Below are positions 16,101 through 19,100 of a stretch of 64,000 bases of DNA, piece by piece. Position numbers: made by a program. Source of the stretch: Escherichia coli (GTDB lineage: Bacteria > Pseudomonadota > Gammaproteobacteria > Enterobacterales > Enterobacteriaceae); NCBI RefSeq assembly GCF_030013205.1, contig NZ_CP122648.1; one strand, 5' to 3'. The first letter of the stretch is position 1. Every line of letters begins with the position of its first letter.

Positions 16101-19100
16101 GTGGAAATGAAGGAGTATGTTAATAATAACGTTCGTATACGAACAATTAAGAGAGTAAGCAATGAAACTGATCGTCGGGATGACAGGGGCTACCGGTGCG
16201 CCTCTTGGTGTGGCATTACTGCAAGCGCTGCGGGAGATGCCGAATGTCGAGACTCATCTGGTGATGTCGAAGTGGGCGAAAACCACTATTGAACTGGAAA
16301 CGCCTTACAGCGCTCGCGATGTTGCCGCCCTCGCAGACTTCAGCCATAACCCGGCGGATCAGGCGGCGACTATCTCTTCCGGCTCCTTTCGTACCGACGG
16401 CATGATCGTTATTCCATGCAGTATGAAAACGCTCGCCGGTATCCGCGCTGGTTACGCCGATGGCCTGGTGGGGCGCGCGGCGGACGTCGTGCTCAAAGAA
16501 GGCCGCAAACTGGTGCTGGTGCCGCGTGAAATGCCGCTTAGCACAATCCATCTCGAAAATATGCTCGCACTTTCGCGCATGGGCGTGGCGATGGTGCCGC
16601 CGATGCCTGCCTTTTATAACCATCCCGAAACGGTAGATGACATTGTCCACCACGTGGTAGCCCGCGTGCTGGATCAATTTGGCCTCGAACATCCTCACGC
16701 CAGGCGCTGGCAAGGATTGCCGCAGGCCCGGAATTTTTCTCAGGAGAATGAATAATGGCATTTGATGATTTACGCAGCTTTTTACAGGCGCTTGATGACC
16801 ACGGCCAGTTACTGAAAATCAGCGAAGAGGTGAACGCGGAACCGGATCTGGCAGCCGCAGCCAACGCCACCGGGCGTATCGGCGACGGCGCGCCCGCGCT
16901 TTGGTTTGATAATATTCGCGGCTTTATCGATGCCCGCGTGGCAATGAACACCATCGGTTCCTGGCAGAACCACGCGATTTCCCTCGGCCTGCCGCCAAAC
17001 ACCCCGGTTAAAAAACAGATTGATGAGTTTATCCGCCGCTGGGATAACTTCCCCATTACCCCGGAGCGCCGCGCCAATCCAGCCTGGGCGCAGAACACCG
17101 TCGATGGCGACGAGATCAACCTGTTCGATATTCTGCCGCTGTTTCGTTTAAACGACGGTGATGGCGGTTTCTATCTCGATAAAGCGTGCGTGGTTTCCCG
17201 CGATCCGCTCGACCCGGATAACTTCGGCAAGCAGAACGTCGGCATCTACCGCATGGAAGTGAAGGGCAAACGTAAGCTCGGCCTGCAACCGGTGCCGATG
17301 CACGATATCGCTCTGCATCTGCATAAAGCGGAAGAACGCGGTGAAGATCTGCCGATTGCCATCACCCTGGGTAACGATCCGATCATCACCCTGATGGGCG
17401 CCACGCCGCTGAAATACGATCAGTCTGAGTACGAAATGGCGGGCGCGCTGCGCGAAAGCCCGTACCCGATCGCCACCGCCCCGCTGACCGGTTTTGATGT
17501 GCCGTGGGGCTCGGAAGTGATCCTCGAAGGGGTTATCGAAAGTCGTAAACGTGAGATTGAAGGGCCGTTCGGTGAGTTTACCGGCCACTACTCCGGCGGG
17601 CGTAACATGACCGTGGTGCGTATCGATAAAGTCTCTTACCGTACCAAACCGATTTTCGAATCGCTCTATCTTGGTATGCCGTGGACCGAAATCGACTACC
17701 TGATGGGGCCTGCCACCTGCGTGCCGCTGTATCAGCAACTGAAAGCCGAGTTCCCGGAAGTGCAGGCGGTAAACGCCATGTACACCCACGGCCTGTTGGC
17801 GATTATCTCCACCAAAAAACGCTACGGCGGCTTTGCCCGCGCGGTGGGCCTGCGTGCAATGACCACGCCGCACGGTCTGGGCTACGTGAAGATGGTGATT
17901 ATGGTCGATGAAGACGTTGATCCGTTCAACCTGCCGCAGGTGATGTGGGCGCTCTCCTCGAAAGTGAACCCGGCAGGCGACCTGGTGCAGTTGCCAAATA
18001 TGTCCGTGCTGGAACTCGACCCTGGCTCAAGCCCGGCGGGGATCACCGACAAGCTGATTATCGACGCCACCACGCCTGTCGCCCCGGACAACCGTGGTCA
18101 CTACAGCCAGCCGGTGGTGGATTTACCGGAAACCAAAGCCTGGGCTGAAAAACTGACCGCTATGCTGGCCGCACGTAAATAAGGAGAACAAGATGATTTG
18201 TCCACGTTGTGCTGATGAACAGATTGAAGTGATGGCGAAATCGCCGGTAAAAGATGTCTGGACAGTCTATCAGTGCCAGCATTGCCTCTATACCTGGCGC
18301 GATACCGAACCGCTTCGCCGCACCAGCCGCGAACATTACCCGGAAGCGTTTCGTATGACGCAGAAAGACATTGATGACGCGCCAATGGTGCCGAGCATTC
18401 CGCCGCTGCTGGCGGAAGGTAAGCGTTAATAAAAAGTGCCGGGTAGTGGCTTTGCTTTACCCGGCCTCATTACTTTATTTTATAAAATGACAGCCGCCCG
18501 CTTTTCGGCGATCCGGTATCAATATAAATCTGGTTTGCGAACGTCTGAATGTTATCAAACATCATATGTCCAAATATAAAATAATCAGCGCCGTTTATTT
18601 GTTGTAACTCGCCATTAAGCGATTTCTGCACACGATCAACAGGCCAGAGTAATTCTCTCTCCGCTATTTCTTTGCCAAAGAGATATTCACTCCCCGGATA
18701 ATCGGTAATGACTCCAACTTACTGATAGTGTTTTATGTTCAGATAATGCCCGATGACCTTGTCATGCAGCTCCACCGATTTTGAGAACGACAGTGACTTC
18801 CGTCCCAGCCTTGCCAGATGTTGTCTCAGATTCAGGTTATGCCGCTCAATGCGCTGAGTATAACGCTTGCTGATAACGTGCAGCTTTCCCTTCAGGCGTG
18901 ATTCATACAGCGGCCAGCCATCCGTCATCCATACCACGACCTCAAAGGCCGACAGCAGGCTCAGAAGACGCTCCAGTGTGGCCAGAGTGCGTTCACCGAA
19001 GACGTGCGCCACAACCGTCCTCCGCATCCTGTCATACGCGTAAAACAGCCAGCGCTGACGTGATTTAGCACCGACGTAGCCCCACTGTTCGTCCATTTCA

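What the first reader, a model, noticed from the sequence alone, without database searches (positions are those of the whole stretch)
18431..18466. Shared hairpin terminator between convergent ecdD and pphB remnant
The stem GCCGGGTA…TACCCGGC lies between the ecdD stop and the pphB stop and has a T-run on the minus strand. It marks the boundary between the decarboxylase operon and the neighbouring gene.
Basis: seen in the sequence. Interest (0 to 1): 0.15.

Follow-up and report, generated by a model that had tools for sequence, protein, structure and literature searches.

The report
Decayed REP hairpin after ecdD
The hairpin between ecdD and the broken pphB gene is real, but it is a worn-down copy of the common enterobacterial REP repeat sitting at a known variable junction of the E. 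coli rpoS-mutS region; it probably caps the 3' ends of the two converging transcripts, scores poorly as a classical terminator, and is an ordinary feature.

Summary
GCCGGGTA (18438-18445) pairs with TACCCGGC (18458-18465) between the ecdD stop (18427-18429) and the pphB stop (18470-18472, minus strand). On the minus strand it is followed by ACTTTTTATTA.

The window is the E. coli rpoS-mutS mosaic region, identical to strain ETEC4079, in the O157:H7-type "pattern I" layout where ecdD abuts pphB (about 15% of complete genomes).

The hairpin is not native to the pphB flank: K-12-type genomes have a different hairpin there. It travels with ecdD. In Pseudocitrobacter, Citrobacter, Klebsiella and Enterobacter the same slot holds canonical REP elements with GTAG heads, often as inverted pairs or arrays. 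A covariance model built only from those sequences ranks the window hairpin first in 64 kb (35 bits, E about 6e-9) and also finds canonical REPs elsewhere.

In Escherichia the GTAG head and inner stem have decayed, while the outer stem and A-tract persist. By a classical terminator score it fails on both strands (-13 pphB sense, -30 ecdD sense), whereas neighbouring true terminators pass (+14 to +47).

Best reading: a solitary decayed REP acting as a 3' stem-loop, a weak intrinsic terminator for pphB-sense or IS1 read-out RNA and an exonuclease block for ecdBCD mRNA. Function is inferred. Low interest.

The parts
18193..18429 (+). ecdD, the small subunit D of the non-oxidative hydroxyarylic acid decarboxylase and last gene of ecdBCD; stop TAA at 18427-18429
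   Evidence: ORF. RefSeq annotation of the 100% identical record NZ_CP122643.
18430..18437 (.). A-tract spacer TAAAAAGT; read on the minus strand it is ACTTTTTA, the T-run that follows the hairpin
   Evidence: Conserved in all 10 Escherichia-type copies, with 1 of 8 columns variable plus a 1-nt length change. An A-run also follows the ecdD stop in many other genera.
18438..18445 (.). 5' arm of the outer stem, GCCGGGTA
   Evidence: Together the two arms have 2 of 16 variable columns in Escherichia. Three pairs show compensatory changes across genera.
18446..18457 (.). Loop GTGGCTTTGCTT. It holds the remains of the REP inner stem (GGC/GC) and, at 18456-18457, the family's invariant TT, which is the AA bulge on the REP strand
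   Evidence: Fold. TT is invariant in alignment A2. The AA bulge is described for E. coli REPs in PMC8266576. Citrobacter L038 has the identical loop GTGGCTTTGCTTT.
18458..18465 (.). 3' arm of the outer stem, TACCCGGC
18466..18469 (-). Decayed REP head: the minus strand reads TGAG where canonical copies read GTAG
   Evidence: REP-strand view. P. vendiensis has GTAGGCCGGGT; Escherichia copies have TGAG, GTGG, CAAG, TATG or GTA-G. All 4 columns are variable.
18435..18473 (+). Full extent of the REP-like unit as matched by covariance model R1; the model orientation has the CTAC/head side toward pphB
   Evidence: 35.2 bits, E 6.3e-9, the best hit in the window. The reverse orientation scores only 8.6 bits.
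18470..18703 (-). pphB C-terminal fragment (residues 141-218), stop at 18470-18472
   Evidence: tblastn. RefSeq pseudogene annotation.
18704..19471 (-). IS1 (768 bp) with insA/insB on the minus strand, transcribed toward the hairpin
   Evidence: Terminal repeats read. ORFs. Annotation.
19472..19603 (-). pphB N-terminal fragment (residues 1-44)
   Evidence: tblastn. Annotation.

Best explanation
The hairpin is a solitary, partly decayed REP (repetitive extragenic palindromic) unit. It belongs to the 3' flank of the ecdBCD operon and lies, head toward pphB, in the 40-bp gap between the convergent ecdD and pphB stop codons.

Shown here:
- It is homologous in sequence and structure to canonical REPs that occupy the same slot after ecdD in other Enterobacteriaceae.
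- Its GTAG head and inner stem have degenerated in Escherichia, while the 7-8 bp GC-rich outer stem and the upstream A-tract are retained.

Inferred mechanism:
- When transcribed from either strand it folds into a -15 to -17 kcal/mol stem-loop.
- In ecdD sense there is no adjacent U-tract. RNA polymerase probably reads through into untranslated, C-over-G antisense pphB sequence, where Rho terminates. 3'-5' exonucleases then trim the transcript back to the stem-loop, which becomes the stable 3' end of ecdBCD mRNA.
- In pphB sense the stem is followed after 2 nt by UUUUUAUU, so it can act as a weak intrinsic terminator and also as an exonuclease block. In this strain pphB is destroyed by IS1, so the RNAs concerned would be IS1 read-out or remnant transcripts, which the hairpin would keep from running antisense into ecdD.
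- With its GTAG head mutated, the element is most likely no longer a substrate for the REP-associated transposase.
For: Identity:
- 19 palindromes taken from directly downstream of ecdD in non-Escherichia genera align as REPs ending in CCTAC. They show 93.9% pairing in the 7-bp outer stem, against 19-48% for slid controls, and compensatory changes at 3 pairs.
- Model R1, built only from these, puts the window hairpin first in the window (35.2 bits, E 6e-9). It then finds a canonical REP at 51989-52023 (31.9 bits) and a REP-like palindrome at 38174-38209, both lying between ORFs.
- In 70 loci it finds 64 copies in both orientations: inverted pairs, an array of at least 9 copies in C. koseri, and copies kilobases from ecdD.
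- P. vendiensis has the same ecdD|REP|pphB layout with an intact GTAG.
- Citrobacter L038 shares the window's loop exactly, with a compensatory T-A to C-G stem change, and has no pphB next to it.
- K-12-type genomes have a different sequence after pphB.

Function:
- Stable fold on both strands.
- T-run on the minus strand, conserved in all Escherichia copies.
- C56/G37 downstream in ecdD sense.
[quoted passage not shown] REPs act as partial Rho-dependent terminators plus stabilisers. About 60% lie between convergent genes, and 78 lie inside 306 predicted bidirectional terminators (bioRxiv 10.64898/2026.03.23.713779).
Against: - No transcript data for this locus were examined, so every functional step is inferred.
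- The GTAG head is not present (TGAG), so a defining REP feature is not met in this copy.
- The copy scores 35 bits against 44-53 for canonical copies.
- No close second copy of this subtype exists in E. coli genomes at BLAST sensitivity: 827 genomes, essentially one place each.
- Stem conservation within Escherichia (2 of 16 variable columns, against 32 of 121 in the coding flanks) rests on 10 related sequences and no significance test was run.
- The cited preprint found no general effect of terminal REPs on mRNA half-life.
- The terminator score is my own implementation of a 1990 rule with modern energy parameters.
Confidence: 0.72

Rival explanations
1. It is a purpose-built bidirectional intrinsic (Rho-independent) terminator shared by ecdBCD and pphB. 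The hairpin plus flanking A- and U-rich tracts would release RNA polymerase in both directions.
For: - GC-rich hairpin between convergent stops.
- T-run on the minus strand, and an A-rich/U-rich flank pairing that extends the minus-strand MFE structure.
- The T-run is conserved across Escherichia.
- Many REPs coincide with predicted bidirectional terminators.
Against: - Terminator score is -13 (pphB sense) and -30 (ecdD sense). The rpoS terminator scores +24 to +47 and the ecdD/ygbN bidirectional terminator +14 to +19.
- In ecdD sense the first 8 nt after the stem are CUCAUUAC.
- The loop is 12 nt.
- The sequence is homologous to REPs rather than unique.
- P. vendiensis keeps the REP but has no T-run.
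Confidence: 0.15
2. It is a functionless relic: a dead REP copy that is drifting, with its stem still visible only because too little time has passed.
For: - The GTAG head has decayed in at least five different ways, the inner stem is eroded, and one E. coli-labelled copy (L042) has a stem mismatch.
- pphB itself is a pseudogene here.
- The excess conservation of the stem was not shown to be significant.
Against: - The outer stem is intact in E. coli, E. whittamii and unnamed Escherichia species, while the adjacent 4-nt head is variable in all columns and the coding flanks vary in about 26% of columns.
- There are compensatory stem changes relative to Citrobacter orthologues.
- Nearly all E. 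coli mRNAs end in a protective stem-loop, and no alternative one lies in the 40-bp gap.
Confidence: 0.1
3. Its main significance is as a recombination junction. The REP is the site at which the 6.1-kb ygbN-ygbI cassette was gained or lost in the mutS-rpoS mosaic.
For: - Homology to the other two layouts breaks within a few nucleotides of each end of the hairpin: at about 18441 and at 18471, the pphB stop codon, which is TAA here and TAG in K-12.
- The region is a documented mosaic with four main patterns (PMC4209514).
- A second degenerate REP-like palindrome may sit at the other end of the ecd module, at 15558-15598.
Against: - No REP partner exists at the ygb cassette ends in layouts B and C; those carry unrelated hairpins.
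- An AATAAAAG microhomology at the A-tract is enough to explain the ecdD-side joint.
- The left-hand palindrome is weakly supported: R1 9.5 bits, Rfam naRNA4 E 0.33.
- This reading concerns history rather than present function and is compatible with the best explanation.
Confidence: 0.2

Closest known systems
E. coli / enterobacterial REP elements (Y, Z1, Z2 palindromic units; BIMEs)
   Same: - A roughly 35-nt imperfect GC-rich palindrome in an intergenic gap between convergent genes.
- The stem motif GCCGG(G/A)T...A(C/T)CCGGC and the unpaired AA/TT next to the outer stem.
- It matches a covariance model that also detects canonical REPs.
- The orthologous slot in sister genera holds canonical GTAG-headed copies and BIMEs.
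   Different: - GTAG head lost (TGAG).
- Inner stem reduced to 2-3 pairs.
- Solitary, with no inverted partner.
- The GCCGGGT subtype has no other close copy in E. coli genomes.
- Scores 35 bits against 44-53 for canonical copies.
Bidirectional intrinsic terminators between convergent genes, such as the ecdD/ygbN (or rpoS/ygbN) hairpin AAAAGGTCCGATGCCCATCGGACCTTTTT in other E. coli
   Same: Same genomic role (the slot after the ecdD stop), a hairpin flanked by an A-run, and a T-run on the opposite strand.
   Different: That hairpin has a 4-nt loop, a perfect 8-bp stem and U-tracts directly abutting both sides, and scores +14 to +19. The window hairpin has a 12-nt loop, a 2-nt spacer before the minus-strand U-run and no plus-strand U-run, and scores -13 and -30.
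Protective 3' stem-loops of Rho-dependent transcripts (Dar & Sorek 2018, PMC6061677)
   Same: A stable stem-loop without a following U-tract in ecdD sense, followed by C-over-G sequence (C56/G37) in an untranslated antisense region.
   Different: No 3'-end mapping or bicyclomycin data exist for this locus in what I examined, so the assignment is by analogy only.

Membership tests
REP (repetitive extragenic palindromic) elements | Imperfect palindrome of 20-50 nt able to form a stem-loop (definition in PMC8266576) | tested here: met
   28-nt hairpin within a 39-nt unit, 8-bp outer stem, MFE -15 to -17 kcal/mol, z about -3.1 to -3.7.
REP (repetitive extragenic palindromic) elements | Conserved GTAG tetranucleotide immediately 5' of the palindrome | tested here: not met
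   The minus strand reads TGAG-GCCGGGT. The positional orthologue in P. vendiensis reads GTAG-GCCGGGT, and other Escherichia copies read GTGG, CAAG, TATG or GTA-G. The head is therefore lost in this copy but present in the positional orthologue.
REP (repetitive extragenic palindromic) elements | Member of a multi-copy dispersed family in the genome | tested here: inconclusive
   The family the hairpin matches is multi-copy: 64 hits in 70 loci, plus two other strong hits in the window. This exact subtype has only one place per E. coli genome at BLAST sensitivity. No whole-genome covariance-model count was possible.
REP (repetitive extragenic palindromic) elements | Extragenic location, typically at gene 3' ends | tested here: met
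   Lies wholly within the 40-bp gap between two convergent stop codons.
REP (repetitive extragenic palindromic) elements | Conserved unpaired AA (TT on the complementary strand) interrupting the stem, as in E. coli REPs | tested here: inconclusive
   The TT is invariant in the 19-sequence alignment and is retained at 18456-18457. In this copy a G-to-A change at 18445 lets the T at 18458 pair, and the inner stem beyond the bulge has largely decayed.
REP (repetitive extragenic palindromic) elements | Recognised and cleaved by the cognate REP-associated transposase (TnpA-REP/RAYT) | not testable with these tools
   PMC8266576 states that the E. coli system does not tolerate GTAG mutations, so this copy is predicted to be inactive. 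No assay was possible.
BIME (paired REP and inverted REP) | Two REPs in inverse orientation separated by a short linker | tested here: not met
   There is only one unit in the 40-bp gap. Inverted pairs are seen at the same slot in L012, L068, L073, L083, L032, L036 and L038.
Intrinsic (Rho-independent) terminator | GC-rich stem-loop immediately followed by a 7-8 nt U-rich tract | tested here: inconclusive
   pphB sense: the stem is followed by AC then UUUUUAUU, score -13, which is sub-threshold. ecdD sense: the tail is CUCAUUAC..., score -30. Positive controls score +14 to +47. The tool's consensus scan did not list it because the loop exceeds 8 nt.
Intrinsic (Rho-independent) terminator | Transcript 3' ends map to the U-tract in vivo or in vitro | not testable with these tools
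   No Term-seq or 3' RACE data for a type-A strain could be consulted. EHEC Term-seq papers exist, but their locus-level data were not examined.

The most novel reading that the evidence does not exclude
The 2.9-kb ecd module (MarR-type regulator gene plus ecdBCD) would be a REP-bracketed cassette, with decayed REPs at both ends (15558-15598 and 18438-18465), heads pointing outward. REP-associated single-strand processing or REP-REP recombination, rather than ordinary homologous exchange, would then have generated the well-known mutS-rpoS mosaic. In addition, because the right-hand REP lies only 8 nt from the ecdD stop and 4 nt from the pphB stop, it would throttle translation termination of both convergent genes through ribosome stalling, the mechanism reported for REPs fewer than 16 nt from a stop codon.
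Probability: 0.08. Interest if true: 0.45.

Novelty: new member of a known kind. Interest (0 to 1): 0.15.

Why it matters
It matters little beyond annotation. It shows that a hairpin which looks like a bespoke shared terminator is a degenerate copy of the most common enterobacterial repeat, and that it belongs to the ecd operon rather than to pphB. It also pins the pattern I junction of the much-used mutS-rpoS typing region to a 30-bp REP remnant. This is a small example of how a REP that has lost its mobility signal (GTAG) can persist as a 3'-end stem-loop and acquire a T-run on one side, which is the kind of transition state between Rho-dependent and intrinsic 3' ends discussed by Dar & Sorek. 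It is useful for anyone annotating REPs outside K-12 or interpreting 3'-end data in O157:H7-type strains.

Tried and rejected
- The consensus terminator scan did not report the hairpin because of its loop-length limit, so it says nothing either way.
- Rfam at a permissive E-value over 14-23 kb found nothing at the hairpin. It gave only sub-threshold ctRNA_p42d and naRNA4 hits near rpoS.
- I first supposed that the hairpin was the native pphB terminator. I rejected this because K-12-type and pattern IV genomes have an unrelated hairpin (CTCATGCTTC...GAAGCATGAG) and a TAG stop after pphB.
- I then considered that it might be sequence created at a deletion joint. I rejected this because the same palindrome, with compensatory changes, follows ecdD in Citrobacter and Pseudocitrobacter.
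- A BLAST search for further copies in 5,426 E. coli genomes found none outside this locus.
- A literature search for locus-specific 3'-end mapping in EHEC returned Term-seq papers, but I did not examine their locus-level data. Two searches failed on term syntax.
- The 47-aa GTG ORF at 18436-18579 that overlaps the hairpin was not pursued; I treated it as a mechanical ORF antisense to pphB without testing it.
- No protein structure or homology searches were needed.
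Full report
**What is there**

Positions 18430-18472 read TAAAAAGT-GCCGGGTA-GTGGCTTTGCTT-TACCCGGC-CTCA-TTA. 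The 8-bp arms are at 18438-18445 and 18458-18465. The exact pattern occurs once in the 64-kb window and never in 100 shuffles.

As RNA the hairpin folds at -17.4 kcal/mol on the plus strand and -15.3 kcal/mol on the minus strand, with 2-3 extra pairs inside the 12-nt loop. Z-scores are -3.1 to -3.7 against dinucleotide shuffles.

The ecdD stop (TAA, 18427-18429) lies 8 nt before the stem. The pphB stop (18470-18472, minus strand) lies 4 nt after it. On the minus strand the stem is followed by AC and then TTTTTATTA. On the plus strand the tail is CTCATTACTTTATTTTAT. The consensus terminator scan missed the hairpin only because its loop exceeds that tool's 8-nt limit.

**Context**

The window is the E. 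coli rpoS-mutS region and is 100% identical over the query to strain ETEC4079. The gene order is rpoS, a divergent MarR-type regulator gene, ecdB, ecdC, ecdD, then pphB and mutS on the minus strand.

pphB is split by a 768-bp IS1 (18704-19471). It lacks residues 45-140 and there is no target duplication, so 'pphB remnant' is accurate. The IS1 transposase genes are on the minus strand and are transcribed toward the hairpin.

**The hairpin sits exactly at a polymorphic junction**

Among 5,426 complete E. coli genomes, 804 have ecdD abutting pphB as in the window (architecture A). Others match only up to about 18441 on the ecdD side: in architecture B, ecdD is followed by ygbN through ygbI and then pphB. 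Still others match only from 18471 on the pphB side: architecture C, the K-12 type, has no ecd genes.

In B and C the slot after ecdD or rpoS holds a textbook bidirectional terminator, AAAAGGTCCGATGCCCATCGGACCTTTTT. The pphB 3' flank there holds an unrelated hairpin, CTCATGCTTC-ACAGAA-GAAGCATGAG, and a TAG stop.

These layouts correspond to the published o454-nlpD patterns I (O157:H7/EHEC-1), IV and II (PMC4209514). That paper does not mention the palindrome.

A 50-nt query centred on the hairpin finds 827 genomes, essentially one place each and never on a plasmid. In E. coli it is therefore a single-locus sequence, and it is not the native pphB flank.

**What it is**

I fetched 80 ecdD loci from other species and read the sequence after each ecdD stop. 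Many carry palindromes that end in CCTAC:

- Pseudocitrobacter vendiensis: TGCCGGGTGGCGGCTACGCCTTACCCGGCCTAC, with pphB convergent exactly as in the window.
- Klebsiella indica: GCCGGATGGCGGCTAACGCCTTATCCGGCCTAC.
- Enterobacter and Citrobacter: GCCCGGTGGCGCTGCGCTTACCGGGCCTAC, followed by an inverted second copy.

These have the defining features of REP elements given in PMC8266576: a 20-50 nt imperfect palindrome, a GTAG head (CTAC on this strand), high copy number, intergenic position and frequent pairing as BIMEs.

Nineteen such non-Escherichia sequences align with 93.9% of cells paired in the 7-bp outer stem, against 19-48% when partners are slid. They show compensatory changes at three pairs: GC/CG in 5 sequences, GC/AU in 4 and UA/CG in 2.

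A covariance model built only from them (R1), run over the whole window with filters off, gave these top hits:

| Window position | Strand | Bits | What it is |
|---|---|---|---|
| 18435-18473 | + | 35.2 (E 6e-9) | the finding |
| 51989-52023 | - | 31.9 | canonical REP GCCTGATGCGCTACGCTTATCAGGCCTAC, between ORFs |
| 38174-38209 | + | 25.8 | REP-like palindrome, between ORFs |
| all others | either | 14.4 or less | the reverse-strand match of the 38.2-kb palindrome, then noise |

The reverse orientation of the finding scores 8.6 bits, so the unit has a defined polarity with its head toward pphB.

Over 70 loci the model finds 64 copies in both orientations. These include inverted pairs, an array of at least 9 copies in C. 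koseri, and copies kilobases from ecdD. Canonical GCCGGGT-subtype copies also occur at unrelated positions in Pseudenterobacter, Kosakonia and Enterobacter.

Citrobacter sp. L038 has TGCCGGGCGTGGCTTTGCTTTGCCCGGC after ecdD. That is the window's loop exactly, with a compensatory T-A to C-G change, and a second inverted REP follows it. In C. werkmanii the ecdD-REP unit also lies beside mutS, but with a Sel1/TPR-repeat gene instead of pphB. The palindrome is therefore part of the ecd operon's 3' flank and is REP-derived.

**State of decay**

Read on the REP strand, P. vendiensis has GTAG-GCCGGGT-AA-GGCG-TAGC-CGCC-ACCCGGC. The window has TGAG-GCCGGGT-AA-AGC-AAA-GCC-ACT-ACCCGGC.

Across ten Escherichia-type copies, variation is distributed as follows:

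| Part | Variable columns |
|---|---|
| Former GTAG head | 4 of 4 (TGAG, GTGG, CAAG, TATG, GTA-G) |
| Loop | 4 of 12 |
| Two stem arms | 2 of 16 (one change keeps a G-U pair; the other, in L042, breaks a pair) |
| A-tract | 1 of 8 |
| Coding flanks | 17 of 61 and 15 of 60 |

Escherichia copies score 28-39 bits, against 44-53 for canonical ones. Because the E. coli REP transposase system is reported not to tolerate GTAG mutations, this copy is probably immobile. That is an inference. The retention of the stem and A-tract is suggestive of constraint, but the sample is small and related, and I ran no significance test.

**Is it a terminator?**

I scored it with a d'Aubenton-Carafa-type discriminant, implemented by me with ViennaRNA energies:

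| Site | Score |
|---|---|
| rpoS terminator | +24 to +47 |
| ecdD/ygbN bidirectional terminator | +14 to +19 |
| Window hairpin, pphB sense | -13 |
| Window hairpin, ecdD sense | -30 (and the best-scoring candidate there is not even the main stem) |
| K-12 pphB 3' flank | also negative |

The minus-strand T-run is real and is conserved in all Escherichia copies. It is separated from the stem by 2 nt, and it is absent in P. vendiensis. In ecdD sense there is no U-tract beside the stem. 'Shared intrinsic terminator' is therefore not supported as stated.

**Most likely mechanism (inferred from literature)**

[quoted passage not shown] Those stem-loops protect against PNPase and RNase II, rut-like C-over-G sequence lies downstream, and 24% of such structures are REPs. 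They also suggested that weak U-tracts mark transitional cases (PMC6061677).

A 2026 preprint finds that a model REP is both a partial Rho-dependent terminator and an mRNA stabiliser. It also reports that about 60% of REPs lie between convergent genes and that 78 REPs fall inside 306 predicted bidirectional terminators. It found no general effect on mRNA half-life.

Here the RNA downstream of the hairpin in ecdD sense is untranslated antisense pphB with C56/G37. I therefore propose the following:

- ecdD sense: read-through, Rho termination, then trimming back to the REP stem.
- pphB sense: weak intrinsic termination plus protection. In this strain the relevant RNAs would be IS1 read-out or remnant transcripts, and the hairpin would shield ecdD from antisense transcription.

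REPs fewer than 16 nt from a stop codon have also been reported to reduce translation by ribosome stalling (Liang et al. 2015, as cited in PMC12306157). The distance criterion is met for both genes (8 and 4 nt), but nothing was tested.

**Comparison and verdict**

It works like a REP or 3' stem-loop, and it descends from the REP family. As a strict member it fails one defining feature (GTAG) and is inconclusive on copy number for its subtype, so I describe it as a decayed REP copy.

It is a new, unannotated member of a well-known kind, at a well-known mosaic locus. Interest is low.

The most novel reading not excluded is that REPs bracket the ecd module and mediated the mosaic, with a second weak REP-like palindrome at 15558-15598. 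Its support is thin.

Noticed in passing
window 18704-19471 (with 18470-18703 and 19472-19603): A 768-bp IS1 sits inside pphB. There is no flanking target duplication and pphB residues 45-140 are missing, so this is an insertion plus an adjacent deletion of about 290 bp. The transposase genes read toward the hairpin and ecdD.
   Followed up: partly
window 15558-15598: A degenerate REP-like palindrome, GTGGGCTGGATAAGCCGCAATAGCGTCTCATCCGGCA, lies between the rpoS terminator and the MarR-gene stop. Support is weak: Rfam naRNA4 25.4 bits (E 0.33), model R1 only 9.5 bits, fold z -1.4 to -2.0. If real, the ecd module is bracketed by two decayed REPs with heads outward.
   Followed up: partly
window 51989-52023 (-) and 38174-38209 (+): A canonical REP (GCCTGATGCGCTACGCTTATCAGGCCTAC) and a REP-like palindrome lacking CTAC. 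Both lie between ORFs; the second lies between convergent ORFs.
   Followed up: partly
window 19675-19703: An 11-bp-stem hairpin, ATTCCCGATAGCAAAAGACTATCGGGAAT, lies just downstream of the mutS stop and before the pphB start. It has no U-tract in mutS sense (score -40.6), so it may be another protective 3' stem-loop.
   Followed up: no
L003 12278-12320; L004 2905-2950; window 18427-18440: The ecdD-side joint of architecture B shares an AATAAAAG microhomology with both architecture A (TAATAAAAAGTG) and K-12 (CACAATAAAAGGTCC). This could be the illegitimate-recombination point that fused the ecd and ygb modules.
   Followed up: no
L009, L015, L017: Contigs labelled as Collinsella, Citrobacter and Pseudocitrobacter MAGs carry junction sequences identical or nearly identical to E. 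coli types. They are probably misbinned Escherichia contigs.
   Followed up: no
L051 1892-2496 (Citrobacter koseri): A tandem array of at least 9 REP units at about 74-bp spacing lies directly after ecdD, the same slot that holds a single decayed unit in E. coli.
   Followed up: no
L046, L053 (Salmonella enterica subspecies diarizonae and arizonae); L049, L052, L054, L055: In Salmonella, Phytobacter and Kosakonia, ecdD ends against the 3' end of rpoS across a clean bidirectional terminator. The ecd operon is therefore inverted relative to E. coli within the same hypervariable region.
   Followed up: no
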